Sequence record: PP993145.1
DNA: 64,000 bases
DNA from: Escherichia phage phiP4
Direction: 5' to 3' (one strand)
The notes beneath the pieces were generated by a model. That model made no database searches. It was not told the DNA's origin and was given only the letters and a program-made list of their open reading frames with translations. Position numbers and translations under genes: made by a program. This document shows, piece after piece, positions 10,460 through 24,018 of the stretch (position 1 is the stretch's first letter; each line of letters starts with the position of its first letter).

Positions 10460-10681
10460 TCAGCCATCTTCGGGTTCTCGTTGCTGTGCTACTTCTAGCC
10501 AGTCTGGTAGAAGAAACTTTGTACGAAATTCTTCGTAAGTTTCTTTGGGATAAAAGCTAAAACCTCCTTTCTCATCATTCAGGATAACAGAGCCGTCCGT
10601 TTGTTCGTATGCTCGGTATGTTTCTCCAATAACAATAACTCGTTTATCGGTACTTTTATTACGAAACTCAAAAACGTGCAT
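10460..10681 (-). CDS. hypothetical protein
   Basis: 73-aa ORF. Confidence 0.35.
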   Translation of the reverse strand: MHVFEFRNKSTDKRVIVIGETYRAYEQTDGSVILNDEKGGFSFYPKETYEEFRTKFLLPDWLEVAQQREPEDG

Positions 10682-10697
10682 AACGTTTCCTTAAAGT

Positions 10698-10773
10698 TGG
10701 AGCGGCTAGAGGGAATCGAACCCTACTCAGCGAGGCTTGGAAGGCCTGCGACACAACCCGTGTGCTTAACCGC
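10698..10773 (-). tRNA. tRNA-Gly (UCC)
   Basis: Acceptor GCGGTTA/TAGCCGC, T-loop TTCGATT, anticodon loop CTTCCAA. Confidence 0.5.
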
Positions 10774-10781
10774 TTATTATT

Positions 10782-10857
10782 TGGCTGGAGAAGGAGGAAT
10801 CGAACCTACCATTAACGGAGTCAAAGGCCGTTGTGCTAACCGTTACACTACTCTCCA
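10782..10857 (-). tRNA. tRNA-Gln (UUG)
   Basis: U1-A72 acceptor TGGAGAG/TTCTCCA with G discriminator as in bacterial tRNA-Gln; anticodon loop CTTTGAC. Confidence 0.55.
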
Positions 10858-10863
10858 ATTGTT

Positions 10864-10939
10864 TGGCTGGGATGCCACGGATCGAACGTGGAACCTTCGG
10901 AGTCAGAGGCCGACGATCTGCCAATTGATCTACATCCCA
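10864..10939 (-). tRNA. tRNA-Gln (CUG)
   Basis: Acceptor TGGGATG/CATCCCA, discriminator G, D-arm GATC-AATTGGCA-GATC, anticodon loop CTCTGAC. Confidence 0.55.
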
Positions 10940-10948
10940 AGAATGCTA

Positions 10949-11185
10949 TTAGCTAGATGCTGTTTCTACTGGCTGAGAAACAGCAGGCTGTTCTAACGTA
11001 TCTGGTGCTGATACAGAGAAAAGAGCTTGTAATGCTGCAATATCACGCTCGTAAGTATCAATACGAGTAGTAAGAGTATCTACCATCTGTTTATGGTAGG
11101 ATAAGTTATTCTGAGATTCATCTCGAAGAGTTTGCAGTTCTGCAAGACGTGTTAACATAATTTCACTAATTAAAGCATTACTCAT
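10949..11185 (-). CDS. hypothetical coiled-coil protein
   Basis: 78-aa ORF. Confidence 0.35.
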   Translation of the reverse strand: MSNALISEIMLTRLAELQTLRDESQNNLSYHKQMVDTLTTRIDTYERDIAALQALFSVSAPDTLEQPAVSQPVETASS

Positions 11186-11375
11186 TTGTTTCTCCTAAGT
11201 TTTCCTGTTCTTCTAAACGTTTGCCTTCATGATCTACTCGAATAACTCCGCATCCTTCGCAAATCACAACTGCACCATAACCTTCTTTGACCTCAGCTTC
11301 TGTAATCAAACCAGAAAGATCACCAGTATCTCTGCCCCACATATCAATGGAGCATTGTTTGCAGAAATCAGCCAT
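11178..11375 (-). CDS. small Zn-ribbon-like protein
   Basis: 65 aa with CKQC ... CEGC cysteine pairs. Confidence 0.35.
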   Translation of the reverse strand: MADFCKQCSIDMWGRDTGDLSGLITEAEVKEGYGAVVICEGCGVIRVDHEGKRLEEQENLGETNE

Positions 11376-11400
11376 ATTTTATTTCCTATTTAAGTTAATT

Positions 11401-11477
11401 TGGGGTGGCTAGTGGAATTCGAATCCACATAGGCCTGATTCACAATCAGGATCATTAACCAATTATGATATAGCCAC
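11401..11477 (-). tRNA. tRNA-His (GUG)
   Basis: Acceptor GTGGCTA/TAGCCAC, discriminator C, anticodon arm CCTGA-TTGTGAA-TCAGG, T-arm GTGGA-TTCGAAT-TCCAC. Confidence 0.65.
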
Positions 11478-11704
11478 AATTGAAAACTCGCAGGGTTAGC
11501 GAAACCTTCCTCAATTAGCATGTTCTAGAATACTAATCAAGTTATCTCCTATTGCACGCAGCTCAAGACGAGTACGAATTTTCAATTGTGGCGGCTCTCA
11601 GAAACTCTTCTACTCTAGCTTTAGCAGCTTACTCCCGAACGCATGTCGGGGAAGTCTTACCAAGAGCATCAAATAGCACCGTTACACTTTGAGCCATAGA
11701 TGTA

Positions 11705-11800
11705 TCAAGAAGCAGAAGGATTTGAACCTTCACGAGATAGACCAGTTATCTCAGCCGCTTTATGAGGTATGTTGCAGGGAGTGGATGTTCCCTATAAACC
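11705..11800 (-). ncRNA. tRNA-like element, not foldable as a canonical tRNA
   Basis: Perfect T-arm GAAGG-TTCAAAT-CCTTC at 11716-11732 but no complementary 5' acceptor strand found within 100 nt; bounds are a guess. Confidence 0.25.
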
Positions 11801-12040
11801 TTTTAGGCAGCCCCGTCTACCGATTCCGGCATACTTCAAGAATTTTTTATAAACCAGCAGAAGCCTCATTTAAAGCATCAACAATAGCTTCACGTTGGGT
11901 CATTCCATACCCGGTGGAATCTAGGTGTGGCAAATAAGCCATCCATCCCTTATCTGTTTCATGAAGACATGCTTTAAATTTTTTACCATCCTTCATTGTT
12001 ACAGTAACTGTTTTGCTCATAAGATTTCCTTATAGTTAAT

Positions 12041-12130
12041 TGGCAGAAGATAATGGAGTCGAACCATCACCGTATCGCTACAGCGGGCTGGTTTTCAAGA
12101 CCAGTTACGTACCACTACGTCCTATCTTCT
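12041..12130 (-). tRNA. tRNA-Ser (UGA), type II
   Basis: Acceptor AGAAGAT/ATCTTCT, anticodon arm CTGGT-CTTGAAA-ACCAG (as in E. coli tRNA-Ser UGA), long variable arm, 90 nt. Confidence 0.65.
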
Positions 12131-12143
12131 AGTATTTATTATA

Positions 12144-12491
12144 CTAATAGTCACTCGTACTAGTGAAGTTTTCTACTTTTCCACAGATTTTACAAGTCCT
12201 ACGATGATAGTAGGTAATTTTTACTTTAGACCAGCCATCGTGATCATTACCTAGGTTTTCTGTTACTCCCCAAGTATGAGAACACTCATTTTCAATTTGC
12301 TTAGTAAGAGCGTTATAGCGAGTATAAAACTCCTCCTGAGCAATAGCAAATTCTTTCTGTAGTTTATCACGAGCAATAATAGCACGTTCCAGATATGTTA
12401 AATCAGGCATTCCAGCTTTTTCAGCAACATCTATAATCTTATCTTCATCTAAAGATGCTAAAAACTCTAGAGCTTTATCTTTTGTTAGCAT
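12144..12491 (-). CDS. hypothetical protein with C-terminal Zn-ribbon-like motif
   Basis: 115 aa; CSHTWG ... CKICGK. Confidence 0.4.
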   Translation of the reverse strand: MLTKDKALEFLASLDEDKIIDVAEKAGMPDLTYLERAIIARDKLQKEFAIAQEEFYTRYNALTKQIENECSHTWGVTENLGNDHDGWSKVKITYYHRRTCKICGKVENFTSTSDY

Positions 12492-12510
12492 TATTATTAC
12501 CTCAAGTGTT

Positions 12511-12601
12511 TGGCGGAAGAGGAGAGATTTGAACTCTCAAGCCGTTTTACCAGTCAGCCACTTTCCAAGCGGTTTTCGTCACCAATTCGATTTGCTCTTC
12601 C
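12511..12601 (-). tRNA. tRNA-Ser (GGA), type II
   Basis: Acceptor GGAAGAG/CTCTTCC, anticodon region CCGC-TTGGAAA-GTGG resembling E. coli tRNA-Ser GGA, long variable arm, 91 nt. Confidence 0.55.
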
Positions 12602-12611
12602 AATAATAAGA

Positions 12612-12706
12612 TGATGCCTCTATCACACCAGGCAGTTACGCCTCGCTGGGATTCGAACCCATTAAAACAGCTCAACCGAGATAGTAGGTTTAATTTACTC
12701 TGACCA
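12612..12706 (-). ncRNA. tRNA-like element / degenerate tRNA
   Basis: T-arm-like TGGG-TTCGAAT-CCCA at 12646-12662 without an adjacent acceptor stem; distal ends (12612-12618 and 12700-12706) are partly complementary. Confidence 0.25.
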
Positions 12707-12713
12707 TCAAATT

Positions 12714-12790
12714 TGGTGCGTGACAAGGGATTCGAACCCTCAAAACCCGACTTCTAAGGACGGTATGTATGCCAATTCCATCAATCACGC
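12714..12790 (-). tRNA. tRNA, anticodon UAG (Leu-type anticodon, short variable arm)
   Basis: Acceptor GCGTGAT/GTCACGC, T-arm GAGGG-TTCGAAT-CCCTT, anticodon loop CTTAGAA; anticodon stem has one mismatch. Confidence 0.45.
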
Positions 12791-12795
12791 ATATT

Positions 12796-12874
12796 TGGTG
12801 GAGAATAACGGAATCGAACCGTTCTGATGTCCTCGGTGCAAGCGAGGTGTCCACTCCATGCAGACCCATTCCCC
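12796..12874 (-). tRNA. tRNA-Ala (UGC)
   Basis: Acceptor GGGGAAT/ATTCTCC with G3-U70 pair, anticodon arm CCTCG-CTTGCAC-CGAGG. Confidence 0.65.
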
Positions 12875-12887
12875 AAATTCTTTAGTT

Positions 12888-13072
12888 TACTAAGGCTATT
12901 AGCTCGGCGTAACTACAGCACCTTCGCTTCGAGCGGAAGGAACTGCGTCATCTCGCAAACCCAATACACTATTCAGTTGCCGCTGAATCTAGTGGACCAA
13001 TCTAGAACTTCTCCCGAATCAGGGGGATCGTGCTTTTTGGCAGCCAGTCCTAGGTCGAGCTAATACCTTAGT
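12888..13072 (-). ncRNA. structured ORF-free element closed by terminal inverted repeat (candidate small RNA)
   Basis: About 16-nt inverted repeat taaggctattagctcg (12890-12906) / cgagctaatacctta (13055-13070) enclosing a GC-rich stretch with internal hairpins; strand not determined. Confidence 0.3.
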
Positions 13073-13159
13073 GAACTATGATGAGGATTTCTCCTCATCA
13101 ATTTATATAAATATTATAACAAGAAATTAAGCATCAAGCAACTGCGTTTTTTCTTGAAA

Positions 13160-13239
13160 TTGGTAGATCGCCTGGGACTCGAACCCAGAACCTTCCGATT
13201 AAAAGTCGGATGCTACTAAACCTATTGAGCTAGCGATCT
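13160..13239 (-). tRNA. tRNA-Lys (UUU)
   Basis: Acceptor AGATCGC/GCGATCT, anticodon arm TCCGA-CTTTTAA-TCGGA, T-arm CTGGG-TTCGAGT-CCCAG. Confidence 0.7.
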
Positions 13240-13428
13240 ATTAGTAACCATTATACACTTCTTTAATAGAGTGGACTTTTAAGTAAGGGTGATTAGTACT
13301 AAACTCTACCATTACTTCATCCCAATTTTTACCATAATGAGCAAGTAAGGATTTTGATGTATTCTTACCTAATCGTTTATCACTTACTACTAATCGAAAT
13401 ACTTTCATTTCGAAATCCTCTATTAAAA

Positions 13429-13506
13429 TGGAAGCGGGTGCAGGAATCGAACCTACCTCTTTCTAGCTTATGAGACTAGCGATCTCTACCAGAGATCTAA
13501 CCCGCG
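13429..13506 (-). tRNA. tRNA-fMet-like (CAU), initiator-type
   Basis: Anticodon loop CTCATAA; 5' end CGCGGGT with unpaired position 1-72 (C1/U72), the hallmark of bacterial initiator tRNA. Confidence 0.55.
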
Positions 13507-13512
13507 ATTATT

Positions 13513-13588
13513 TGGTCAGTGCGGCAGGACTCGAACCTGCGACCCGAAGCATCCAAGGCTCCCACGCTACCAACTGCGCTACGCACTG
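13513..13588 (-). tRNA. tRNA-Pro (UGG)
   Basis: Acceptor CAGTGCG/CGCACTG, D-arm GCGC-AGTTGGTA-GCGT, anticodon loop CTTGGAT. Confidence 0.65.
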
Positions 13589-13797
13589 TTAATTTTTGTT
13601 AACTCACTTTATAAGATATATTATACAGAGAATTAAGCAGAATAGCAAATGAATTTTTAATAAATTTACTTATTGTGTAGGCCACCTAGAGGCTATGAAC
13701 CCCACGGCTGACAAAGAAGTTTGCGAGACTTCTCTTAAATGCCAGAATAGACCCGCCGATCTATCGGAACCTACATAATAAGTAAACTTTATAGTGT

Positions 13798-13918
13798 CAT
13801 TCTAGACAGGACTCGAACCTGTTATCACTTGTGCGGACTTACGAGAACCATTCTTTCACTCGAATCGAACGAGCTTCTGCCCTCGCCAAGCTGGTTTCCC
13901 CATCAACCACGCTAGAAT
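13798..13918 (-). ncRNA. unusual tRNA-like RNA of about 120 nt (tRNA with large insertion or novel tRNA-like ncRNA)
   Basis: Perfect 7-bp acceptor pairing between 13799-13805 and 13912-13918, perfect T-arm ACAGG-TTCGAGT-CCTGT, D-arm-like TGGT-loop-ACCA, but about 45 extra nt between D-arm and T-arm including a second T-arm-like hairpin. Confidence 0.4.
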
Positions 13919-14040
13919 GTTTGATTGTTTTCAGTGCAAGAGTCCGAGTCTTGGACACGACCGCTTCGCAAGTACATAGGCAGCTTATCATGAGTCAGCA
14001 CTTCCGAATTGCTAGCTCCGTGTTCTGCACTGAAATTTTA

Positions 14041-14388
14041 TTAGTTTAACCGTAAAGTATTATCTACTTCACCATTAATTGTTCGGCATTCTTCTGGGAT
14101 TGCCGGGGTAGCCTTATATTCCCACCACTCAGCACCATCATATTCCCCACGTTCTAACCAAGTTCCATCGGCAAACCATACATTACCATAAAGTAATTGT
14201 CCACCGTATCCAGAATCATATTCAAAGTCTAGGTTATTAAGAAAATCCTCAATATCTTCTTCTGTATAACCTAAAGGTAATACCCAAACTTTTTTATCCC
14301 CATAATACCCGAATTCTATTTTAATACACTTAACTTCAGAATTAGTATTTTTTAAGGCAAGTAACAACTCTTCTTTAGCATTACGCAT
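14041..14388 (-). CDS. hypothetical protein
   Basis: 115-aa ORF. Confidence 0.4.
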   Translation of the reverse strand: MRNAKEELLLALKNTNSEVKCIKIEFGYYGDKKVWVLPLGYTEEDIEDFLNNLDFEYDSGYGGQLLYGNVWFADGTWLERGEYDGAEWWEYKATPAIPEECRTINGEVDNTLRLN

Positions 14389-14413
14389 AATATATTCTCA
14401 TACTGAATTAATT

Positions 14414-14490
14414 TGGCGCGACCGATGGGATTCGAACCCACATTCTCTCCCGTGACAGGGGAGTACCATTACCAAGCCAGCCCCGGTCGC
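14414..14490 (-). tRNA. tRNA-Asp (GUC)
   Basis: Acceptor GCGACCG/CGGTCGC, anticodon arm CTCCC-CTGTCAC-GGGAG. Confidence 0.7.
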
Positions 14491-14499
14491 ATGATCTGT

Positions 14500-14685
14500 T
14501 TATTCAGCTTTGAGTTTTTCAATAGCTGCATTAAGTTCTTTAAGAAACTCTTTTCGTACATTAAGACGATTGAGACTTACTAGTATATCATGTTTAAGTT
14601 CTTCGATGTATTTCTTCTCAACTTCAATATTGTTGATAGTGCTATCACGATGAACTTCTAACTGTGCAATTACATTCTTGGACAT
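14500..14685 (-). CDS. hypothetical coiled-coil protein
   Basis: 61-aa ORF. Confidence 0.35.
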   Translation of the reverse strand: MSKNVIAQLEVHRDSTINNIEVEKKYIEELKHDILVSLNRLNVRKEFLKELNAAIEKLKAE

Positions 14686-14787
14686 GCTTATTTCCTCAGT
14701 TATTAATGAAAATGGTATCTGTGGCTGAATTCGATGTCAGCAATGATAGCTGGTTGGCTACCGGTTTACTTAACTCTACACAGAATT

Positions 14788-14870
14788 TGGCGGGCCGTGT
14801 AGGATTCGAACCTACGTTGTCTTTCGACATGGATTAACAGTCCACCGCCAAACCGCTTGGCTAACGACCC
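14788..14870 (-). tRNA. tRNA-Asn (GUU) with extended variable arm
   Basis: Anticodon arm TGGA-CTGTTAA-TCCA as in E. coli tRNA-Asn; extra GTC-GAAA-GAC hairpin in the variable region; 83 nt. Confidence 0.55.
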
Positions 14871-15022
14871 TAAATTTATATTGCTGACTAGGATTTTCAC
14901 CTAGACGGAGTTAGCACCGTAGCGTGTAGCGGCATACCTCTCCAAACCGTGCCTCATCTTTCAATTACGGAGACAGTGTTCCTACGCGTGCCTGAATTGA
15001 TTTAACAATTCTTTCAGCAAAT

Positions 15023-15098
15023 TGGACGACCGCATGAGATTTGAACTCACATAAAAAGGATTTGCAATCCTTCGCCTAAGCCATTCAGCCAACGGTCG
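15023..15098 (-). tRNA. tRNA-Cys (GCA)
   Basis: Acceptor CGACCGT/GCGGTCG, anticodon arm AAGGA-TTGCAAA-TCCTT. Confidence 0.65.
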
Positions 15099-15165
15099 AT
15101 TTATTATCTTTCATAACGTGCAGCTACATGGTCGGAACCACAACACTTAAATCTAACTAATCGTT

Positions 15166-15408
15166 TCATTTAACACGCTCCGGTAGATCTTCTAGTTTAT
15201 ATTCAGTAGCCACATTAGCAGCATCTAAAAGTAATCCCATGTGTTTAAGGATTTTAGTGATAGATTCGCCTTTGGCTTCTTCTACGAAAGAACGTAGATG
15301 AACAAAGTCAATTCCACCGTCCATACCAGAGAAAATATTTAGTAAGCGAAGCATTACCAGCTTACGTTCATTCAATTCTTGTTCTGTCATGTTGCTTCTC
15401 CAGTTCAA
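15166..15408 (-). CDS. hypothetical protein
   Basis: 80-aa ORF. Confidence 0.35.
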   Translation of the reverse strand: MNWRSNMTEQELNERKLVMLRLLNIFSGMDGGIDFVHLRSFVEEAKGESITKILKHMGLLLDAANVATEYKLEDLPERVK

Positions 15409-15440
15409 TTTATATAATTATTATACAGAACTTTTGGAAA

Positions 15441-15728
15441 CTAAGCAACTACATTTTTTAAGAATTTGATGCCTTTCTTTTTCTTCTTATATTTCCACGT
15501 TAAGGGATTCTGTCGATTATGAACGCTTGAGATCTTCGTCTCGTCAAAGTTCTTCAATATCATGTAATCACAAGATAATTGTTCTAGTGGAATGTGATCA
15601 CCGTCAAAAGCGTATACATAAGGCTGTTGACTAGCACGATAATGATAGACTTTGTTAATTCTACGTTTCAGCGACTTATCCGCGCAGTAAATAAAGAAGT
15701 TTTCAGGATGCATCAGCAGCTCCTTCAA
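15441..15728 (-). CDS. hypothetical protein
   Basis: 95-aa ORF with TTG start. Confidence 0.35.
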   Translation of the reverse strand: MKELLMHPENFFIYCADKSLKRRINKVYHYRASQQPYVYAFDGDHIPLEQLSCDYMILKNFDETKISSVHNRQNPLTWKYKKKKKGIKFLKNVVA

Positions 15729-15730
15729 TT

Positions 15731-15805
15731 TGGTGCACCCTGTTCGTATCGAACGAACCTCTCAAGCTCTTCAGGCAAGCGCTAATCCATCTCAGCTAAA
15801 GGTGC
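15731..15805 (-). tRNA. tRNA-Phe (GAA)
   Basis: Acceptor GCACCTT/AGGGTGC, D-arm GCTG-AGATGGAT-TAGC, T-arm GTTCG-TTCGATA-CGAAC, anticodon loop CTGAAGA; anticodon stem has two U-U mismatches. Confidence 0.45.
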
Positions 15806-15812
15806 AAATTTT

Positions 15813-15888
15813 TGGCAAACCTACTAGGACTCGAACCTAGACCGTACGGTTTTGGAGACCGACATGCTGTCCAGTAACACTCTAGGAA
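15813..15888 (-). tRNA. tRNA-Trp-like (CCA anticodon arm), acceptor not resolved
   Basis: Anticodon arm TCGGT-CTCCAAA-ACCGT matches E. coli tRNA-Trp, T-arm CTAGG-TTCGAGT-CCTAG, but no complementary 5' acceptor strand; 5' bound is a guess. Confidence 0.35.
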
Positions 15889-15897
15889 TGCAGGAAT

Positions 15898-15974
15898 TGG
15901 CGTCCTGTGAGGGGATCGAACCCGCAAATCCTACCTTGAAAGGGTAGTGACTTTACCAGTTTGTCTAACAGGAC
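15898..15974 (-). tRNA. tRNA-Glu (UUC)
   Basis: Acceptor GTCCTGT/ACAGGAC, anticodon arm CTACC-CTTTCAA-GGTAG. Confidence 0.65.
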
Positions 15975-15980
15975 TTAAAT

Positions 15981-16068
15981 TGGTGGGGAAAGATGGAGTC
16001 GAACCACCCGAGTCGCAATGACAACTGATTTACAGTCAGCTCTGCTACCACTTACAGAATATTTCCCC
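15981..16068 (-). tRNA. tRNA-Tyr (GUA), type II
   Basis: Acceptor GGGGAAA/TTTCCCC, anticodon arm GCTGA-CTGTAAA-TCAGT as in E. coli tRNA-Tyr, long variable arm, 88 nt. Confidence 0.65.
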
Positions 16069-16199
16069 ATATTTAGAAGTATTCAAAAAATTCTCATTTA
16101 AACACTTTTAAATATGTTTCCAAATTAGATAAATATTATATCAAGTTTTATAGCACTGAGCAAGTCAAATTTTAAAGAACTTGCTCAGTGCTGTATTAG

Positions 16200-16475
16200 T
16201 TAGTCGAACTTAGGAGTGACAGTTAAGGAGAATGGAAGTTCGAAAACTTCTTCACCCTCATCACTAACAGTAATTACACGACCTTTAAGTTCAGACATTG
16301 AAATATCAATATCAGCTTTTGCATCTGGAGCCATGCCAGCTTCAACACATTTAGCTTTAATTTCCGGTAGAAGTTCTACATCGTAGAAATAAAGCCATTC
16401 AATCTCACCTTCCCAGCCTTCCCAGGATTTACAGATTGCACTTTCAATACCAGCTGCTATAACACGATTTTGCAT
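16200..16475 (-). CDS. hypothetical protein
   Basis: 91-aa ORF. Confidence 0.4.
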   Translation of the reverse strand: MQNRVIAAGIESAICKSWEGWEGEIEWLYFYDVELLPEIKAKCVEAGMAPDAKADIDISMSELKGRVITVSDEGEEVFELPFSLTVTPKFD

Positions 16476-16565
16476 TCGTTAACTCCTCCATCAATTTATA
16501 TAACTATTATACCAGAAATTTAAAGCAAAAGGCAAGTACATTTTTAAAAATTCTGTTTGGAAGAG

Positions 16566-16772
16566 CTAAACTCCAGACTCTTCAGCCAAGTCTAGACTAA
16601 TAAGAGATATAGCCATAATTGCTGCTCCATGTTCTTTTTCTCCAGTTTCTTTAGCTAGAGTTATAATATCAAGAAATTGCTTATGAAAATCTGCAACCTC
16701 TTGAGTTAAACCCGCCTCAGCAATCATACCTTTAAGCATGAAACGTTGTGCGGTAATTTCAGGATTAGCCAT
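16566..16772 (-). CDS. hypothetical protein
   Basis: 68-aa ORF. Confidence 0.35.
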   Translation of the reverse strand: MANPEITAQRFMLKGMIAEAGLTQEVADFHKQFLDIITLAKETGEKEHGAAIMAISLISLDLAEESGV

Positions 16773-16947
16773 GTTGTTTCTCCAGTTTCATCTTTAATAG
16801 TCTACAAATAAAATCAATGTCTTCATCCGTGCCTAGATCTCTATCTTCAAGAGTTGCCTTGAAGTTTTTAGTCAATTCCATGAGAATAACTTCTCTAGAA
16901 CGACGTGTTGGCGGAGGTGGATGTCTATACATCTTATTTCCTTAATT

Positions 16948-17024
16948 TGGTAGGGGTGGTGGGATTCGAACCCACAAAACCTGAATTTTAAGTCCAGTAC
17001 CTATGCCAATTCGATTACACCCCC
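16948..17024 (-). tRNA. tRNA, anticodon UAA (Leu-type anticodon, short variable arm)
   Basis: Acceptor GGGGGTG/CACCCCT, T-arm GTGGG-TTCGAAT-CCCAC, anticodon arm GGAGT... CTGGA-CTTAAAA-TTCAG. Confidence 0.5.
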
Positions 17025-17125
17025 ATGTAATCAGTTTATTAGTTGATACATATTATAGCCTAGTGAAAATCCTACTACTAATCCCACAAACCAACCAATA
17101 TAATAATCTTTTAGTTTCACAGGTA

Positions 17126-17311
17126 TTATCCTCGTTCAATATCTAGGGAAATACCGCAGTTAGGATTAATACCTGTACCATTGCAATTTGCGCAAACCCA
17201 GATATTGCAAAAAGTATCTCCTGCTTCTGCATCAGAACTTTCACCAATTCCCCTACACTCAGGGCAGGCACATTCCTCTAGCTCTTGCTTGAGTTCTTGA
17301 AACTTGGACAT
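17126..17311 (-). CDS. Cys-rich small protein (putative Zn-binding)
   Basis: 61 aa with CACPEC and CANCNGTG clusters. Confidence 0.35.
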   Translation of the reverse strand: MSKFQELKQELEECACPECRGIGESSDAEAGDTFCNIWVCANCNGTGINPNCGISLDIERG

Positions 17312-17319
17312 ATAGTCTC

Positions 17320-17508
17320 CTAGTTAATTACTTTTGAGGCTTCTAAAGCATTGACGTAGTAAACATCTTCTACATTATACATATAGTCTACTACTTTGTC
17401 CATAGCATGGAGTTCAGATGTAGCCTTTACTAGTCTGTACCCTTGCTTAAACTCGTCCGAATGTTCTCTATCTTGTGCAAATTTAACAGAAACTATGAAT
17501 AATTCCAT
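17320..17508 (-). CDS. hypothetical protein
   Basis: 62-aa ORF. Confidence 0.35.
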   Translation of the reverse strand: MELFIVSVKFAQDREHSDEFKQGYRLVKATSELHAMDKVVDYMYNVEDVYYVNALEASKVIN

Positions 17509-17527
17509 TAGTTGTCCTTATTTAATT

Positions 17528-17605
17528 TGGTGGCTCCCCGAGGATTCGAACCTACGTACCTTCCGGTTATGAGCCGGGTGCTCATACCATATGAGCTTGA
17601 GAACC
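17528..17605 (-). tRNA. tRNA, anticodon CAU (Met-type)
   Basis: Acceptor GGTTCTC/GGGAGCC, D-arm GCTC-ATATGGTAT-GAGC, anticodon arm CCGG-CTCATAA-CCGG; T-stem weak. Confidence 0.5.
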
Positions 17606-17611
17606 AAAATC

Positions 17612-17700
17612 TGGCGGAAGAAGTGGGAATCGAACCCACAAGGCTATATTTCAAGCCGACAGATTAGCAATCTGCTGCAATACCGTTATGCTATTCTTCC
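17612..17700 (-). tRNA. tRNA-Ser (GCU), type II
   Basis: Acceptor GGAAGAA/TTCTTCC, anticodon loop TTGCTAA, long variable arm hairpin GGCT...AGCC, 89 nt. Confidence 0.65.
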
Positions 17701-17721
17701 GAATTTATAAGATATATTATA

Positions 17722-18291
17722 TTAGAAATTTAGCTTCATAGCAAGAAAATTTTTCAAGTTTTCGGTAGACATCTCATCCACATCTACAGGAGAAACAAAG
17801 CCGTTTAATTTTCTAGCAAATTTTTCACCTGCAGGGTCATTATCCCCGACAGCTACCAATTTAAAAGGTAATAATTTCAGTTGCTTTAATAACGCTTTTC
17901 CTGGAGAAGAACCCAACATTGCCAGGGCTGGATAACCAGCGTTATGTAACGCAACTGCCTTAAATACAGATTCAGCAATCAATACTACTTTTTCATCTCC
18001 ATTGAGAGTTTCTAGTCCCCATACACACTGGATAGTAGAATAAGTAAAATATTTAGCTTCAAATGGGCACTTACCATGACCTTTTGGAGCAGAAGGATTA
18101 TACGTCTGATAGCCTCTCAACATCCCAGAGAAGTCATACAACGGGACTGTTAGCCATCCTTCCGGACTTAACCAGCAATGATATTTATCTGTATCAAATC
18201 CTCTAGATAAGAGGTGCTGTGTTAGCTCATCAACATTCATATTTGGTTCCTCTCTCAAATTTATAGATATATTATACAGAGAATTTAGCAT
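17722..18291 (-). CDS. Toprim-domain protein (primase-core-like)
   Basis: 189 aa; conserved Glu segment VVLIAESVFKAVAL and DxD segment VAVGDNDPAGE typical of Toprim folds. Confidence 0.45.
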   Translation of the reverse strand: MLNSLYNISINLREEPNMNVDELTQHLLSRGFDTDKYHCWLSPEGWLTVPLYDFSGMLRGYQTYNPSAPKGHGKCPFEAKYFTYSTIQCVWGLETLNGDEKVVLIAESVFKAVALHNAGYPALAMLGSSPGKALLKQLKLLPFKLVAVGDNDPAGEKFARKLNGFVSPVDVDEMSTENLKNFLAMKLNF

Positions 18292-18409
18292 TCAAGCAAT
18301 CAAATTTTTTAACTTTTTAGAGGAAAATCATATGGCACTTAAGGGTAGCAGATAAGTGGTGAGGACCAAAATTTGTGACCCCACTAAAAATCCGGGGGTA
18401 ATTTTTAAA

Positions 18410-18450
18410 GACCCCTTGACATTTTCTCGGGGGTAGTGTAAAGTATACGT
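18410..18450 (+). promoter_or_regulatory. sigma70-type promoter
   Basis: TTGACA (18416-18421), 17-bp spacer, TAAAGT (18439-18444), upstream of the plus-strand three-gene unit. Confidence 0.5.
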
Positions 18451-18506
18451 TATGGATGAGTGATCAAAGAGACACACATTTTCTATATACTAGGAGGTGT
18501 CAAAAA

Positions 18507-19493
18507 ATGACAGAAGAAGTAGCTAAGAGTCCTGAGACCGTCGCTAGCGTTGCAGCAGAACTGCACCGTCACGAGGAATCGGATAAGAAAAAGTGGGAGA
18601 AGGTCAGAGCCTACGAAGAGAAACATCGCGAACACGACGATGAAGAAGATGACGATGATGAACATTGTCATAAATATGGAAAACATAAAATGCAAGAACC
18701 AGTAAACGTATTCACTAGTGGCTTCCCTGGCCTACTGGGTGGTTACCCAGCAAACGCAGGTGCTTTCGGTGGTGAAGGTATGGGACTATTCGGAGCTATC
18801 CTAATCGGTGCTCTATTAACAGGCGGATTCGGTGGTTTCGGTGGATTCGGTGGACGTGGTGTAGTTGGTGATGGTACCGCAGTTGATGCAGTACTTCAGA
18901 ACCAAGATACCGCTAGTATTCTAGCAGCTATTAACACTACTCGTACAGAAGCTAACCAGGGTACTGGAGCTGTTTTAAGCGCAGTTAACAATGGTTTTAG
19001 CCAGACATCCCAAAACCAGAGCCGTGATACTCAGTCTGTACTAACTACGATCTATGGTACAGGTGCTAATCTGTCTAATCAGATCTGCCAGGAAACTCGC
19101 AACGTTATTCAGGGTCAGTTCGATCTTTCTCGCCAGATTGATCAATCTTTCGCAGCTAACCAGATAGCTCGTGCACAAGATAAGTTTGATTCTGCACAGA
19201 TCGCTTTCCAGCAGACTTTACAAACTAATAACCAGTTTGCCGCTGTTCAGGCTCAGATGTGTGCTAACCAGAACTCTCTGGAACGTCAGATCGCTGAATG
19301 TTGCTGTGAACTTCAGACTGCGATCGCTGGTGTAACTACTGCGCGTATCCAGGATGAGTTAGACGCATGTCGCCTACGTGAAGCAATCGCTGCTGGTAGC
19401 GGTGCTAACGGTCAGGTAATTAATCAAATCGCTTTAAGTCTTGGTGCTATCACTCAGACTCTGGCTGGTCTGCAGGCTAAACTGCCGGCTTAA
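18507..19493 (+). CDS. Gly-rich membrane protein with Gln/Asn-rich C-terminal region
   Basis: Start ATG after AGGAGG; charged N-terminus, glycine-zipper TM (GLFGAILIGALLTGGFGGFGGFGG), long Q/N/A/T-rich domain; host-like codon usage. Confidence 0.6.
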   Translation: MTEEVAKSPETVASVAAELHRHEESDKKKWEKVRAYEEKHREHDDEEDDDDEHCHKYGKHKMQEPVNVFTSGFPGLLGGYPANAGAFGGEGMGLFGAILIGALLTGGFGGFGGFGGRGVVGDGTAVDAVLQNQDTASILAAINTTRTEANQGTGAVLSAVNNGFSQTSQNQSRDTQSVLTTIYGTGANLSNQICQETRNVIQGQFDLSRQIDQSFAANQIARAQDKFDSAQIAFQQTLQTNNQFAAVQAQMCANQNSLERQIAECCCELQTAIAGVTTARIQDELDACRLREAIAAGSGANGQVINQIALSLGAITQTLAGLQAKLPA

Positions 19494-19514
19494 TATTAAG
19501 GGGAGGAGCCCATT

Positions 19515-19919
19515 ATGAGTAAATATGGTTTTGTAAATAACGGACTTAATCAAAGTATGGGCTCCCAGCAGCCCATGCCGGGTCTGGATAACCCCTACTT
19601 ACAACAGTTGCAACAGCGTTTAGCAGAAGCGCAACAGATGCAGCAACAACTCCAGCAAAACCCTGGAAGTGTGAGTCCTATGCAAATGATGCAGCAAATG
19701 AGCGGGCAGTCGCAAATGCCTCAACAAATGCAGCAACAGGTGCCGCAGCAGCAAACCCAACAACCGCAGGTTTCTGCGGAAGGACAGGCAGTACTAGCCC
19801 TTTTCGAAGACTTCGCAAAGACAGAGGATGGGAAACAGCTTGTATCACTTATGGGTAAGTTTAATAGCTTCTGCCAAAGCCAAGTTGCAAAAGCTCAAAA
19901 TGGTGGTAATAACTCCTAA
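19515..19919 (+). CDS. Gln-rich low-complexity protein
   Basis: 134 aa, MQQ/QQL repeats; strong RBS GGGGAGGAG. Confidence 0.5.
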   Translation: MSKYGFVNNGLNQSMGSQQPMPGLDNPYLQQLQQRLAEAQQMQQQLQQNPGSVSPMQMMQQMSGQSQMPQQMQQQVPQQQTQQPQVSAEGQAVLALFEDFAKTEDGKQLVSLMGKFNSFCQSQVAKAQNGGNNS

Positions 19920-19928
19920 GGAGGAATT

Positions 19929-20123
19929 ATGTGTTGCAGAAAATCTGTTTCGTGCTGCCCAATGCCTGTAACACGTTGTTGCTCTCCAGCAATGTTTACG
20001 CAAATACCGGCGTTCAATCCGTTTGCCTTTAAACCTATTCTTATCCTGCCCCCTAGAGTAGATTTTCAGTCAAGATTGGCCTCCCGTATGGGTGGTTGCT
20101 GTACACCGAGAGTGTGGTTCTAA
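19929..20123 (+). CDS. small Cys-rich protein
   Basis: 64 aa with CC pairs (MCCRK..CC..CC..GGCC); RBS AAGGAGG. Confidence 0.45.
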   Translation: MCCRKSVSCCPMPVTRCCSPAMFTQIPAFNPFAFKPILILPPRVDFQSRLASRMGGCCTPRVWF

Positions 20124-20137
20124 ACCAAAAAACAAAA

Positions 20138-20170
20138 GCCCCTGCCGAAAGGTAAGGGGCTTTTTCTTTT
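20138..20170 (+). terminator. rho-independent terminator (plus-strand unit)
   Basis: Hairpin gcccct-gccgaaaggta-aggggc followed by TTTTTCTTTT. Confidence 0.65.
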
Positions 20171-20184
20171 GCCTTAAATACAGA

Positions 20185-20220
20185 AAAGCCCGCGCTCTCG
20201 GAGGAAACGCGGGCTTGGTT
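20185..20220 (-). terminator. rho-independent terminator (SPFH gene)
   Basis: Hairpin agcccgcg...cgcgggct with T-run on minus strand, downstream of 20240..21187. Confidence 0.6.
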
Positions 20221-20239
20221 CGAAGATTACGTGTAACTA

Positions 20240-21187
20240 TTACTTGTTACGCATATCCATGATCATTTGACCATCGTAGCCAGTACCTACCACAGTCTGA
20301 GGCACACCACCTTGATACTTCTGAGCACGAATCATTTCAACTTCCAGTTGCTTCCAGCGAATCATCTCAGGAGTAATGGTACGTTGCAATGCGGCGTTAG
20401 CTTCAGCTTCTTTTTTAGCTGCGTACAGTTTAGCATCTGCGTCACGTTCGTTAGCAATAGCCTGGTTATTACGGGCTTCACGGTCTGCTTCTGCCTGTTT
20501 AACTTTTTGCTGTGCTTCTTGTTCAACACGAGCCAACTCAGCTTTTGCAGCATTAACTTGCTCTTCACGAACTTTGGTATTCTGTACCTGTTCCATGATT
20601 ACTGGTGGCAGAGTAATATCCTGAAGGAATACCTGCTTAACTGTGTAACCATATGGGCGTGCATACTCTTCAACTTCTTGTTGAATTGCAGTTTGCAATT
20701 GAGCCTGAATTTTAGCATCAAACAAATCTTGTGCTTTAGGTACAGACTTACCAAACTCACGAATAGTAGACAGTAATTTTTCAGTTACATATTTGTCTAA
20801 CGCTTGATCCTGAGTACCCGCATTAATACGGTTAATCGGTGCCTTAGAACCATCAAACTGCAACATAACAGTCAGGTCAACAGTGGATTTAAACTTATCC
20901 TGGCTAGGAACCTGAAGTTTATCTAATTTTACAGCAATATCTTTTGTACTAAAAGTATCGAAAGATGCAAATGGGTTTACAAGATGGAAACCCGGTAATA
21001 CTGGGTTAGGATCTACTTTACCCAGAAATGTTTGGGTTTTAACCGTACCATCAGAAACAATAGTATATGAATTAAAGGCTAGAATCAAGCCTGCTAAACC
21101 AACTACAGCACCAATACCCCAACGTTTAATAGTACGAATTACTTTCTGCTCAGAAGTCAGTTCTTTCATATTTTTAGTATTAAACAT
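20240..21187 (-). CDS. SPFH/band-7 (stomatin-prohibitin-HflK/C-like) membrane protein
   Basis: 315 aa; N-terminal TM helix, SPFH-like core, C-terminal coiled coil rich in A/E/Q/K/R (AEADREARNNQAIANERDADAKL). Confidence 0.65.
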   Translation of the reverse strand: MFNTKNMKELTSEQKVIRTIKRWGIGAVVGLAGLILAFNSYTIVSDGTVKTQTFLGKVDPNPVLPGFHLVNPFASFDTFSTKDIAVKLDKLQVPSQDKFKSTVDLTVMLQFDGSKAPINRINAGTQDQALDKYVTEKLLSTIREFGKSVPKAQDLFDAKIQAQLQTAIQQEVEEYARPYGYTVKQVFLQDITLPPVIMEQVQNTKVREEQVNAAKAELARVEQEAQQKVKQAEADREARNNQAIANERDADAKLYAAKKEAEANAALQRTITPEMIRWKQLEVEMIRAQKYQGGVPQTVVGTGYDGQMIMDMRNK

Positions 21188-21221
21188 ATATTTCCTTTGT
21201 TTTAGTTACAGTTAATAAAAT

Positions 21222-21296
21222 TGGCCGAGGTGACAGGATTCGAACCTGCATAAAGGAATTTAGAAGACTCCTGCCTCTCCCTTAGACTACACCCCG
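21222..21296 (-). tRNA. tRNA-Arg (UCU)
   Basis: Acceptor CGGGGTG/CACCTCG, T-arm GCAGG-TTCGAAT-CCTGT, anticodon arm GGAGT-CTTCTAA-ATTCC. Confidence 0.6.
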
Positions 21297-22803: not shown

Positions 22804-23271
22804 TTAAGTTTTAGTGACAACAGGTTTATAGAATGTATGTCCCTTAATCTTAGTTGTTTTCTTAAATTTCTTTGTCCAGTAAGGTTTATCTTTACCACTA
22901 TGGAAGTATAGTGCTCCATGTGTAGGATCTTGTGGTAAATCAACGTAGTATATCACTCTAGCTAAATTCTTAGCTGTTTGCCAAGCCTCATCAGTTTTAT
23001 CAACTTTTGGTCTCTTAGATACCCAAGAGAACTGGTTAGACTGATATACTACTTTACAGTAGGAATCTGGGAATTTACCGGAGTTTACACGGTTTTTAGT
23101 AACATGTGCAATCGCCGTCATTCCCTTTATGCCCTCACCACGACTTTCGAAATAGATATTTTTAGCAATGCAATCTATTTCTTTTGCATCGTGCGATGCC
23201 TGACTACTAAAGCTGAAGGTAAGGGCAGCTACTAAAAGCAAAGCTGCCTTCATTCTTTTTACTCCTGCCAA
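22804..23271 (-). CDS. secreted cell wall hydrolase (SleB/Hydrolase_2-like)
   Basis: 155 aa; signal peptide, conserved segments NIYFESRGE, AIAHVTKNR, YCKVVYQSNQFSW. Confidence 0.6.
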   Translation of the reverse strand: MAGVKRMKAALLLVAALTFSFSSQASHDAKEIDCIAKNIYFESRGEGIKGMTAIAHVTKNRVNSGKFPDSYCKVVYQSNQFSWVSKRPKVDKTDEAWQTAKNLARVIYYVDLPQDPTHGALYFHSGKDKPYWTKKFKKTTKIKGHTFYKPVVTKT

Positions 23272-23576
23272 TCATATTCAACACGATTGGGATTTTCTTT
23301 ATACCCTAAGTCAAGCAAATCATTACGCATATTTTGCTTAGCTACTGGGTTCGAGGTTACTAGTACCACTTTCTTTGGTCTCTGCCCAAATTCTAAGAGT
23401 AAACGAAGAATTTGATAACCTTCCATACCATCTACAGCCAAGTCATTATCCATATAAACGAAATGGCCTGTGGTATCAGTTTTATTCAGAAACTCTACAG
23501 CGGCTTCTGGGGTTCGAATGATAATGTCCATTCCGTGAAGATTACGCACATCATCAATCAAAATATGAAAAGTCAT
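23259..23576 (-). CDS. standalone CheY-like receiver (REC) domain protein
   Basis: 105 aa; acidic pair ILIDDV, putative phospho-acceptor context YMDNDLAVDGMEG, VVLVTS and conserved Lys region. Confidence 0.5.
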   Translation of the reverse strand: MTFHILIDDVRNLHGMDIIIRTPEAAVEFLNKTDTTGHFVYMDNDLAVDGMEGYQILRLLLEFGQRPKKVVLVTSNPVAKQNMRNDLLDLGYKENPNRVEYDWQE

Positions 23577-24018
23577 AATAGCCTCGTTTCATCAATTTAA
23601 AAATATATTATACAGATAACTTAGTAAATTAGCAAATACATTTTTAAATTGTGAAACTAGTAAACCGATAAACAGCCTAGAGGCGCCACAGGCCATATCT
23701 TATGAGCCATGTACCTTTGATCTAGGGTTTGAATCATCAACGAATACTTTGCATCTTTTAGCTTTAGAAGTTTAGAAGTTTGAGTTCTTTAAACTTTTCA
23801 GCTTTCATACTTAAATGTTGATCTTTGAAGTTGTGTCGGTAATATCAACGACGCTTTGTTTTTACGTGTCAGATTAAATGTCTGATGTAATAAACATAAT
23901 CTCCAATAGATTATACTTTATAGTATGGTCAGCGGTCTTATTTAACCTCGTATTTCAACCGCTGCTGCGAGGTAAGATGCTTGGGCTTTCGTCTACCGAT
24001 TTACTAGCTTTTAAATTA

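What the first reader, a model, noticed from the sequence alone, without database searches (positions are those of the whole stretch)
23259..23576. Standalone CheY-like receiver domain encoded by a phage
The 105-aa protein has the acidic pocket (ILIDDV), a putative phospho-acceptor Asp in YMDNDLAVDGMEG, the conserved Thr/Ser (VVLVTS) and Lys regions of response-regulator receiver domains, with no output domain. A phage single-domain receiver could act as a phosphate sink or decoy for host two-component systems.
Basis: partly seen in the sequence, partly recalled or inferred. Interest (0 to 1): 0.55.

Follow-up and report, generated by a model that had tools for sequence, protein, structure and literature searches.

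The report
Phage T5 cREC receiver-like enzyme domain
This small T5-like phage gene does encode a CheY-shaped protein, but it belongs to the already named "cREC" family, which is predicted (not yet shown) to process phosphate groups during phage RNA repair rather than to interfere with bacterial two-component signalling.

Summary
The ORF is real: window 23259-23576, minus strand, 105 aa, with its own promoter-like site and Shine-Dalgarno sequence. It is the ortholog of phage T5 gene T5.084, and the window is a T5-like Tequintavirus.

It is not a canonical receiver:
- It scores 12.5 bits on Pfam Response_reg (cut-off 30.2) but 56.8 bits on PF20274 cREC_REC (cut-off 27).
- It lacks helices α1 and α5 and the conserved Lys.
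- It carries extra family-invariant residues (R11, D17, R21, D45, N76).

No histidine kinase was detected beside any of 28 homolog loci. In rV5-like phages cREC sits between an RNA ligase and a sirtuin. In another viral contig it heads a kinase/RNA-ligase/phosphoesterase cassette. The window itself encodes a sirtuin plus a HAD_SAK_2 RNA-repair phosphatase 14 kb away.

The most likely function is a phosphoesterase acting on 2',3'-cyclic phosphate RNA ends or ADP-ribose cyclic phosphate. The family was described in 2021 and remains biochemically untested.

The parts
23259..23576 (-). cREC (cyclic-phosphate processing receiver-like) protein, 105 aa; ortholog of T5.084
23607..23635 (-). sigma-70-like promoter (TTGCTA-17-TATAAT, 10 of 12 matches) about 30 nt upstream of the start codon
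   Evidence: The T5 record annotates a promoter at the equivalent place, directly upstream of T5.084. This is a consensus match only.
23582..23585 (-). Shine-Dalgarno GAGG, 5 nt before the ATG at 23576
   Evidence: Read directly from the sequence.
22804..23253 (-). Downstream gene, probably co-transcribed: SleB-type cell-wall hydrolase with a signal peptide (T5.083 ortholog). Its ATG lies 5 nt after the cREC stop codon. No functional link is evident.
   Evidence: Pfam Hydrolase_2 E 2.4e-25; spacing read from the sequence; no terminator-like site found between the two genes.
37704..38519 (+). SIR2-family protein (T5.102 ortholog). Inferred functional partner: its 57%-identical rV5 homolog is encoded immediately after a cREC gene.
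   Evidence: Pfam SIR2 E 1.2e-24; rV5 linkage. The partnership is inferred, not shown.
38500..39012 (+). HAD_SAK_2 phosphatase ('Swiss Army Knife RNA repair' HAD domain), overlapping the end of the SIR2 gene. Inferred partner in RNA-end healing.
   Evidence: Pfam PF18143 E 1.2e-19. The partnership is inferred.
9209..21296 (-). Cluster of 22 phage tRNA genes starting 2 kb downstream of the cREC gene. These are possible substrates to be protected or repaired (speculative context).
   Evidence: ARAGORN. The rV5 cREC cassette also lies about 4 kb from a tRNA cluster.

Best explanation
The gene encodes a member of the cREC family (Pfam PF20274), a stripped-down receiver-like domain found mainly in phages.

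The protein keeps the phosphoryl-chemistry core of receiver domains:
- an acidic pair, D8/D9, at the end of strand 1, which probably binds Mg2+;
- an Asp, D43, at the end of strand 3;
- a Thr, T74, at the end of strand 4.

It has lost the two helices (α1, α5) and the Lys that belong to signalling receivers. It has gained family-invariant residues around the pocket: R11, D17 and R21 in the loop that replaces α1, D45 two residues after D43 (motif D-[H/N]-D-L-G), and N76 two residues after T74.

I infer that it is an enzyme, not a switch. In this model D43 attacks a phosphate ester to form an aspartyl-phosphate intermediate. D45 acts as general acid/base, as the second Asp of the DxD motif does in HAD phosphatases. 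The arginines bind the substrate phosphate.

The most likely substrates are 2',3'-cyclic phosphate ends of cleaved RNA (tRNA) or ADP-ribose 1'',2''-cyclic phosphate. The latter is the by-product expected if a sirtuin or Tpt1-type enzyme removes an RNA 2'-phosphate using NAD+.

In this T5-like phage the protein would work early in infection, in trans with the phage's SIR2 and HAD_SAK_2 phosphatase. No phage RNA ligase was detected in T5-like phages.

What is shown: the gene, its family membership, the fold, the conserved residues and the gene linkages. What is inferred: the catalytic mechanism, the substrate and the partnership with SIR2/HAD_SAK_2.
For: Family membership: PF20274 at 56.8 bits against a cut-off of 27. 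UniProt and NCBI already name close relatives 'cyclic-phosphate processing receiver domain-containing protein'.

Conservation: across 426 cluster representatives at 50% identity, D8, D9, R21, D43, D45 and G53 are invariant in a 113-sequence alignment. R11, D17, G47, P67, N76 and Y92 are above 90%, and T/S74 is present in 151 of 152.

Context in rV5_ev156: Rnl1-type RNA ligase, then cREC (E 4.5e-15), then SIR2, with a divergently transcribed kinase-only PNK-like protein and a calcineurin-like phosphoesterase. Adjacency to the RNA ligase is annotated in most listed rows down to about 53% identity; 345 records hold this cREC type.

Context elsewhere:
- Viral contig L018 reads cREC, AAA_33 kinase, Rnl1, then two metallophosphoesterases.
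- SIR2 lies one gene from cREC in L031 and 5 kb away in L029.
- RlaP and a WYL-WCX regulator occur among neighbours.
- The window carries SIR2 plus HAD_SAK_2.

Co-occurrence: organism counts of cREC-bearing phages fit inside those of phages with this sirtuin. Counts for the rV5-type cREC nearly equal those of Rnl1.

Published prediction: PMC7824862 and PMC9503650.
Against: - No biochemical or genetic experiment exists for any family member. PMC9503650 itself calls cREC 'experimentally uncharacterized'.
- In this genome the cREC gene is not next to any RNA-repair gene. Its immediate neighbours are a SleB-type hydrolase and an unknown protein, and SIR2/HAD_SAK_2 lie 14 kb away on the other strand.
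- Most surveyed loci (for example L004, L005, L007 and Vibrio phage nt-1) show only small unknown early genes around cREC.
- T5-like phages appear to lack an Rnl1-type ligase and a PNK-like kinase, so a complete phage heal-and-seal pathway is absent here.
- The family's common C-terminal basic residue is replaced in the T5 clade (D102).
- I could not inspect model coordinates, so the active-site geometry is inferred from alignment alone.
Confidence: 0.6

Rival explanations
1. One reading: a CheY-like single-domain receiver that is phosphorylated by host histidine kinases, or by acetyl phosphate, and acts as a phosphate sink or decoy that perturbs host two-component signalling.
For: REC-like fold. 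The acidic pair, the Asp at the end of strand 3 and the Thr at the end of strand 4 are conserved. It is a standalone early gene with its own promoter. Small-molecule phosphodonors do not need a kinase docking surface.
Against: - Response_reg scores 12.5 bits against a cut-off of 30.2.
- Helices α1 and α5 are absent in both models.
- The position equivalent to K109 is N95 and is not conserved.
- The family is overwhelmingly phage-borne, and no kinase or Hpt family was listed among neighbours of 28 loci.
- The extra invariant residues R11, D17, R21, D45 and N76 have no role in a passive sink.
- Recurrent linkage is to RNA ligase, kinase and sirtuin genes.
Confidence: 0.06
2. Anti-defence enzyme or sponge for immune signalling nucleotides. 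In this reading cREC degrades or sequesters small molecules such as cyclic ADP-ribose isomers (Thoeris), cyclic oligoadenylates or their cyclic-phosphate products, or the 2',3'-cyclic-phosphate RNA fragments sensed by CARF or WYL regulators. It would not repair RNA.
For: In L018 a Tad3 Thoeris inhibitor lies two genes upstream of cREC. A WYL-WCX regulator occurs among neighbours. Many loci look like early-gene islands of small accessory proteins. T5-like phages appear to have no RNA ligase to complete a repair. The authors who defined the family also list cADPr as a possible substrate.
Against: The Tad3 co-location is a single case. There is no match to any PADLOC defence-related model. The strongest and most conserved linkage is to an RNA ligase. 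The protein is small and catalytic-looking rather than an oligomeric sponge, although oligomeric state was not assessed.
Confidence: 0.15
3. Same family and same aspartyl-phosphate chemistry, but the activity is a phosphomonoesterase rather than a cyclic phosphodiesterase. It would remove 3'- or 2'-phosphates from RNA ends, replacing the HAD phosphatase half of T4-type polynucleotide kinase-phosphatase.
For: The PNK-like kinases in both cREC cassettes are kinase-only (136 and 149 aa, AAA_33 only). From established knowledge, T4 Pnkp carries a fused DxDxT phosphatase. The D-x-D motif mimics HAD phosphatases. Receiver domains naturally hydrolyse a phosphomonoester-like acyl phosphate.
Against: The same cassettes already contain calcineurin-like phosphoesterases that could do this. 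The window already has a HAD_SAK_2 phosphatase, which would make a second monoesterase redundant. No data discriminate between the two activities.
Confidence: 0.15
4. Non-catalytic partner or regulator of the co-transcribed SleB-type cell-wall hydrolase, or of another phage protein, using the receiver-like fold only as a binding module.
For: The hydrolase gene starts 5 nt after the cREC stop, with no terminator-like site between them. This gene order is kept in T5 and its relatives.
Against: Relatives of the hydrolase were not found near cREC in any non-T5 locus. The hydrolase has a signal peptide, and cREC shows no N-terminal hydrophobic leader in its sequence. Invariant acidic and basic pocket residues across 426 clusters argue for catalysis.
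Confidence: 0.04

Closest known systems
cREC / cREC_REC family (Pfam PF20274), defined by Iyer, Anantharaman, Krishnan, Burroughs and Aravind 2021 (PMC7824862) and revisited in PMC9503650; for example the rV5 protein encoded between RNA ligase 1 and Sir2
   Same: Scores well above the family cut-off. Has the same length of about 100 aa and the same standalone architecture. Shares the invariant residues (DD, R, D, R, D-[H/N]-D-L-G, [T/S]-x-N-P). Is phage-borne, has no kinase partner, and occurs in a genome that carries the associated sirtuin.
   Different: In T5-like phages the gene is not adjacent to RNA-repair or NAD genes. No Rnl1-type ligase or PNK-like kinase was detected in T5-like phages. 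The T5 clade has N at D+1 (DND rather than DHD) and lacks the C-terminal Arg/Lys common in the family.
Response-regulator receiver domains (CheY, Spo0F; Pfam PF00072)
   Different: Below the family score cut-off. Has three helices instead of five (α1 and α5 missing). Has no conserved Lys and no kinase or Hpt partner. Carries extra invariant Arg, Asp and Asn residues. Its contexts point to RNA-end processing rather than signalling.
HAD-superfamily phosphatases, for example the phosphatase domain of T4 polynucleotide kinase-phosphatase (functional analogy only)
   Same: Asp-x-Asp motif at the C-terminal end of a central strand in a Rossmann-like sheet. The expected chemistry goes through an aspartyl-phosphate intermediate. 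Both occur in RNA heal-and-seal cassettes (the HAD mechanism is from established knowledge).
   Different: The DxD motif follows strand 3 rather than strand 1. There is no cap or squiggle/flap elements, no HAD family was returned in the Pfam scan, and the best structural matches are receivers.
2H phosphoesterases (LigT, CPDase; functional analogy only)
   Same: Predicted to act on the same substrates (2',3'-cyclic phosphate RNA ends, ADP-ribose 1'',2''-cyclic phosphate). Found in comparable phage sirtuin and RNA-ligase neighbourhoods according to PMC9503650.
   Different: Unrelated fold and catalytic residues: two H-x-T/S motifs against aspartates.

Membership tests
cREC_REC (Pfam PF20274) | Sequence score above the curated gathering threshold | tested here: met
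   56.8 bits against a cut-off of 27, E 3.8e-15, covering profile positions 2-86 of 88.
cREC_REC (Pfam PF20274) | Conserved aspartates at receiver-equivalent catalytic positions, plus the family motifs | tested here: met
   D8, D9, D43, D45, R11, D17, R21, T74 and N76 are all present in the window protein and invariant or above 90% across the family.
cREC_REC (Pfam PF20274) | Receiver-like Rossmannoid fold | tested here: met
cREC_REC (Pfam PF20274) | Never associated with histidine kinases | tested here: met
   No HisKA, HATPase_c or Hpt family was listed among 127 neighbour proteins of 28 loci, among the 33 largest neighbours, or among the eight window neighbours scanned. An H-box pattern search of the neighbours was empty. 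Only the top 25 families per scan were visible.
cREC_REC (Pfam PF20274) | Gene-neighbourhood link to RNA-repair or NAD/ADP-ribose-processing genes | tested here: inconclusive
   Met in relatives: rV5 has Rnl1-cREC-SIR2, L018 has cREC-kinase-Rnl1-phosphoesterases, and L031/L029 have SIR2 nearby. In this window SIR2 and HAD_SAK_2 are present but 14 kb away, and the immediate neighbours are unrelated.
cREC_REC (Pfam PF20274) | Hydrolysis of cyclic phosphates (the activity that gives the family its name) | not testable with these tools
   This is a prediction only. No experimental paper was found.
Response-regulator receiver (Pfam PF00072, CheY-like) | Sequence score above the curated gathering threshold | tested here: not met
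   12.5 bits against a cut-off of 30.2, E 0.17. hhalign of the family profile against CheY gives probability 37%.
Response-regulator receiver (Pfam PF00072, CheY-like) | (βα)5 fold with five helices, including the α1 and α5 surfaces | tested here: not met
   Only three helices are predicted (residues 23-32, 53-62, 77-89). A 10-residue loop replaces α1 and a short hairpin replaces α5, in two independent models.
Response-regulator receiver (Pfam PF00072, CheY-like) | Conserved quintet: two acidic residues, phospho-acceptor Asp, Thr/Ser, Lys | tested here: not met
   Four of the five are present (D8, D9, D43, T74). The Lys is absent: K109 aligns with N95, and that column is Lys in 24 of 152 sequences.
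Response-regulator receiver (Pfam PF00072, CheY-like) | Cognate histidine kinase or Hpt donor, and phosphorylation on the Asp | not testable with these tools
   No kinase was detected in the surveyed contexts. Phosphorylation itself needs an experiment.
HAD phosphatases | DxDx[T/V] motif after strand 1, with squiggle/flap and cap elements | tested here: not met
   The DxD motif follows strand 3. No HAD family was returned in the Pfam scan at E up to 10. Top structural matches are not HAD proteins. HAD is considered only as a mechanistic analogy.
Toprim domain | Conserved Glu after strand 1 and DxD after strand 3, in a four-stranded Rossmann-like fold | tested here: not met

The most novel reading that the evidence does not exclude
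cREC would be the first receiver-fold domain shown to work as a stand-alone enzyme rather than a switch, using an HAD-like Asp-x-Asp mechanism on cyclic phosphates. In T5-like phages, where no phage RNA ligase was detected, it would act with the phage sirtuin and HAD_SAK_2 phosphatase in one of two ways. It could make nuclease-damaged tRNA ends usable again. Alternatively it could erase the 2',3'-cyclic-phosphate or ADP-ribose-derived molecules that report RNA damage to host defences. Either way it would be a new kind of phage counter-defence that can be tested in a classic model phage.
Probability: 0.3. Interest if true: 0.6.

Novelty: already known. Interest (0 to 1): 0.27.

Why it matters
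The finding itself is ordinary. It re-detects a family that already has a Pfam entry, two descriptive papers and database names, and identical proteins sit in dozens of deposited T5-like genomes.

Its residual value is practical:
- The family is widespread: at least 426 clusters at 50% identity, and matches in 493 + 345 of the 50,697 phage records.
- It is conserved in well-studied model phages (T5, rV5, KVP40-like), yet no member has been tested biochemically.
- A demonstrated activity would clarify how phages without an RNA ligase deal with RNA-cleaving defences, and what the phage sirtuin/HAD_SAK module does.
- The analysis also guards against a recurring mis-annotation. One GenBank record already calls the ortholog a 'cell division response regulator'.

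Tried and rejected
- NCBIfam gave no hit, and PADLOC gave no hit for three family members.
- PDB sequence searches with the single protein and with the family profile found no solved relative. The apparent beta-trefoil and TALE-repeat hits are sums of tiny repeated matches and were discarded.
- The first word-indexed homolog search reached only close relatives. The exhaustive profile search was needed to reach the wider family.
- The search for related loci with the 113-sequence alignment failed because no stretch was conserved enough. A tighter 25-sequence alignment worked.
- The afdb50 fold library was unavailable.
- Three long-contig neighbourhoods (L004, L005, L007) and two KVP40-like Vibrio phage records were largely uninformative, showing mostly small unknown genes.
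- Local searches found no Rnl1 ligase or PNK-like kinase in the window.
- Literature searches for experimental work on cREC or T5.084 found none.
- Considered and rejected: Toprim or HAD membership (see the membership table), and a spurious ORF. The ORF is real: it has a promoter-like site and Shine-Dalgarno sequence, is conserved in 493 phage records, and keeps its invariant residues.

Full report
**1. The observation**

The window has an ATG-to-TAA ORF at 23259..23576 on the minus strand.

The ORF is preceded by a promoter-like site, TTGCTA-17-TATAAT, at 23635..23607. A GAGG Shine-Dalgarno sequence lies 5 nt before the ATG.

The window is a T5-like phage (Tequintavirus), 98.5% identical over 3 kb to Salmonella phage PS3-1. 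The gene is the ortholog of T5.084, a 'hypothetical protein' 96% identical to it, in front of which the T5 record also annotates a promoter.

Proteins matching at E ≤ 1e-5 are encoded in 493 phage records. So the gene is real and conserved.

**2. Is it receiver-like?**

Yes. Two AlphaFold models were built, from a 14-sequence and a 93-sequence alignment. They are confident (pLDDT 90.6 and 94.8; pTM 0.84 and 0.87) and have identical secondary structure.

Fold searches agree:
- Foldseek against the PDB puts receiver domains first (DesR and others, TM about 0.57).
- A family-profile alignment to E. coli CheY matches D43 to D57, T74 to T87 and Y92 to Y106.
- D8/D9 end strand 1, as D12/D13 do in CheY.

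The fifth canonical residue is missing. CheY K109 aligns with N95, and that column is Lys in only 24 of 152 family representatives.

**3. It is not a canonical receiver**

Pfam Response_reg scores 12.5 bits against a cut-off of 30.2. PF20274 cREC_REC ('cyclic-phosphate processing receiver domain') scores 56.8 bits against a cut-off of 27, E 3.8e-15. PHROG 1479, of unknown function, matches at E 4e-30.

The models have only three helices. The ten residues between strands 1 and 2 replace helix α1, and a short hairpin replaces α5. From established knowledge of two-component systems, α1 and the β5-α5 region are the main docking surface for histidine kinases.

An exhaustive profile search found 426 cluster representatives at 50% identity. 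A word-indexed search found 1,764 clusters at 90% identity. In the top 120 listed, nearly all are 96-125 aa and all carry only PF20274.

Conservation across the family:
- D8, D9, R21, D43, D45 and G53 are invariant in a 113-sequence alignment.
- R11, D17, G47, P67, N76, L87 and Y92 exceed 90%.
- Position 74 is T or S in 151 of 152 sequences.

So the family has a D-[H/N]-D-L-G motif after strand 3 and a [T/S]-x-N-P motif after strand 4. It also has two arginines and an aspartate in the loop that replaces α1. These extra invariant residues around the pocket are what one expects of a substrate-binding enzyme, not of a phosphorylation-driven switch. That last point is my inference.

**4. What the literature says**

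The family was defined computationally in PMC7824862 (2021). The paper describes it as a divergent receiver domain never found with histidine kinases. It reports links to NAD+/ADP-ribose-processing and RNA-ligase genes, and predicts activity on 2',3'-cyclic phosphate RNA ends or cyclic ADP-ribose derivatives.

PMC9503650 (2022) repeats the prediction. It lists sirtuin-centred neighbourhoods, including an rV5-type one with cREC and a T5-like (SP15) one with a HAD 'Swiss-army-knife' phosphatase. It states that cREC remains experimentally uncharacterized.

I found no later experimental work. No family member has a solved structure detectable by sequence.

Some database records already name this very protein 'cyclic-phosphate processing receiver domain-containing protein'. 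One record calls it 'cell division response regulator'.

**5. Independent test of the context claims**

I examined 28 loci containing diverse homologs. They came from metagenomic contigs, viral contigs, bacterial MAGs and annotated phages.

*No kinases.* No histidine-kinase or Hpt family was listed among 127 neighbour proteins or among the 33 largest neighbours. A pattern search for kinase H-boxes was empty. Only the top 25 families of each bulk scan were visible.

*Many uninformative loci.* Many neighbourhoods contain only small unknown early genes.

*Informative loci agree with the published picture:*
- In rV5_ev156 the order is Rnl1-type RNA ligase, then cREC (PF20274, E 4.5e-15), then SIR2. 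A kinase-only PNK-like protein and a calcineurin-like phosphoesterase are transcribed divergently, and a tRNA cluster lies about 4 kb away.
- This rV5-type cREC occurs in 345 phage records. The RNA-ligase adjacency is annotated in most listed rows down to about 53% identity.
- Its counts by host genus (Escherichia 216, Klebsiella 39, Campylobacter 23, Salmonella 14) nearly equal those of the Rnl1 ligase (209, 39, 23, 14).
- In viral contig L018 the order is Tad3, an unknown gene, cREC, AAA_33 kinase, Rnl1 and two metallophosphoesterases.
- SIR2 lies one gene from cREC in L031 and 5 kb from it in L029.
- An RlaP nucleotidyltransferase and a WYL-WCX regulator also occur among neighbours.

**6. 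The situation in this window**

The immediate neighbours are unrelated to RNA repair:
- a SleB-type cell-wall hydrolase whose ATG lies 5 nt after the cREC stop codon;
- a 212-aa unknown protein upstream.

An Rv2179c-like 3'-5' exoribonuclease lies two genes further upstream of that 212-aa protein. Downstream of the hydrolase come a 56-aa DUF7616 gene, a weak YqeY-like protein, and then the 22-gene tRNA cluster from 21.3 kb.

Fourteen kilobases away on the other strand, the window encodes a SIR2 protein (37704-38519) overlapping a HAD_SAK_2 'Swiss Army Knife RNA repair' phosphatase (38500-39012). That SIR2 is 57% identical to the rV5 sirtuin that directly follows the rV5 cREC gene.

Organism counts of phages carrying T5-type cREC (Salmonella 269, Escherichia 129, Vibrio 50) plus rV5-type cREC fit within those carrying this sirtuin (Escherichia 375, Salmonella 289, Klebsiella 131, Vibrio 50). 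This suggests genome-level co-occurrence. It is a rough comparison of counts, not a per-genome table.

The window has no Rnl1 or PNK-like homolog, and T5-like phages barely appear among Rnl1-bearing phages.

**7. Most likely mechanism**

Shown: the gene, the family, the fold, the conserved residues and the linkages.

Inferred: the protein is a small phosphoesterase working through an aspartyl-phosphate intermediate. The proposed roles are:
- D43 is the nucleophile.
- D8/D9 hold Mg2+, as in receivers.
- D45, two residues after the nucleophile, plays the general acid/base role of the second Asp in HAD phosphatases.
- T74 and N76 hold the phosphoryl oxygens.
- R11 and R21 take over the charge-neutralising role of the missing Lys and bind the substrate.

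The substrate is most likely a 2',3'-cyclic phosphate RNA end, or ADP-ribose 1'',2''-cyclic phosphate produced if the sirtuin removes an RNA 2'-phosphate with NAD+.

Because no ligase was detected in T5-like phages, the pathway here would either hand healed ends to host enzymes or destroy cyclic-phosphate molecules rather than complete a repair.

I give about 0.97 to family membership and about 0.6 to the enzymatic RNA-end or ADP-ribose phosphate-processing role as a whole. Within that role, the choice between cyclic diesterase and monoesterase, and between RNA and small-molecule substrate, remains open.

**8. Rivals**

- The two-component decoy idea keeps a small probability (about 0.06), because acetyl phosphate could still phosphorylate D43. 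The structure, conservation pattern and contexts all speak against it.
- An anti-defence role on signalling nucleotides (about 0.15) is suggested by the Tad3 neighbour, the WYL regulator and the apparent absence of a ligase.
- A phosphomonoesterase role (about 0.15) is suggested by the kinase-only PNK proteins in the cREC cassettes.
- A non-catalytic role tied to the downstream hydrolase (about 0.04) is not supported outside T5-like phages.

**9. Verdict**

The thing is an already named, already annotated family member, and the proposed signalling-decoy function is unlikely.

Novelty: already known. Interest is low to moderate. It rests only on the fact that this widespread phage family, present in the tractable model phage T5, has never been tested experimentally.

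Noticed in passing
window 24976-25677 (-): The T5.087 ortholog is annotated 'putative metallopeptidase' in T5 and many relatives. Pfam instead matches the Rv2179c-like 3'-5' exoribonuclease domain (PF16473, E 2.4e-8, above the cut-off). This is probably a long-standing mis-annotation, and it is an RNA-related enzyme three genes upstream of cREC.
   Followed up: partly
window 37704-39845 (+): SIR2 gene overlapping a HAD_SAK_2 'Swiss Army Knife RNA repair' phosphatase gene, followed by two tandem DUF7415 paralogs (39015-39443 and 39453-39845). This is the sirtuin-centred module predicted in PMC9503650 to heal RNA ends, and it is untested experimentally.
   Followed up: partly
P0033 (273 aa); phage records OQ291035.1 (Kenya-K38) and MZ501103.1 (SelmaRatti): Metagenome protein P0033 is one 273-aa ORF whose N-terminal ~170 residues carry an HNH-endonuclease-like motif (by eye; no domain scan was run) and whose C-terminal ~100 residues are a cREC domain. 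In two T5-like phages whose cREC match is only ~50% identical to the window protein, the feature over the match is annotated 'HNH endonuclease' or 'intein-containing hypothetical protein'. This may be a homing-endonuclease insertion or a read-through.
   Followed up: no
   Followed up: no
window 9209-21296 (-) and 21297-22130: There are 22 tRNA genes, all on the minus strand. Between tRNA-Arg (21222-21296) and the T5.081 ortholog lies the stretch that T5 annotates as 'RNAX, stable RNA with unknown functions' (T5 40848-41566).
   Followed up: no
L018 4840-5286 (IMGVR_UViG_3300024054_000020): A Tad3 Thoeris-inhibitor homolog (PF25185, E 2e-35) lies two genes upstream of a cREC-kinase-RNA ligase-phosphoesterase cassette. 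This suggests an anti-defence island that mixes NAD-signal and RNA-repair countermeasures.
   Followed up: partly
L009 8434-10441 (Vibrio phage nt-1): Four genes downstream of the KVP40-type cREC lie a DUF2828/DUF7788 protein, annotated 'RNA-binding protein', and an RNaseH_like (PF04308) protein. This may be another RNA-centred module.
   Followed up: no
L030 1357-3830 (Bordetella-labelled MAG contig): Here cREC is flanked by a histone-deacetylase-family protein upstream and a tubulin/FtsZ-like protein downstream. The contig may be from a phage with a PhuZ-like tubulin.
   Followed up: no
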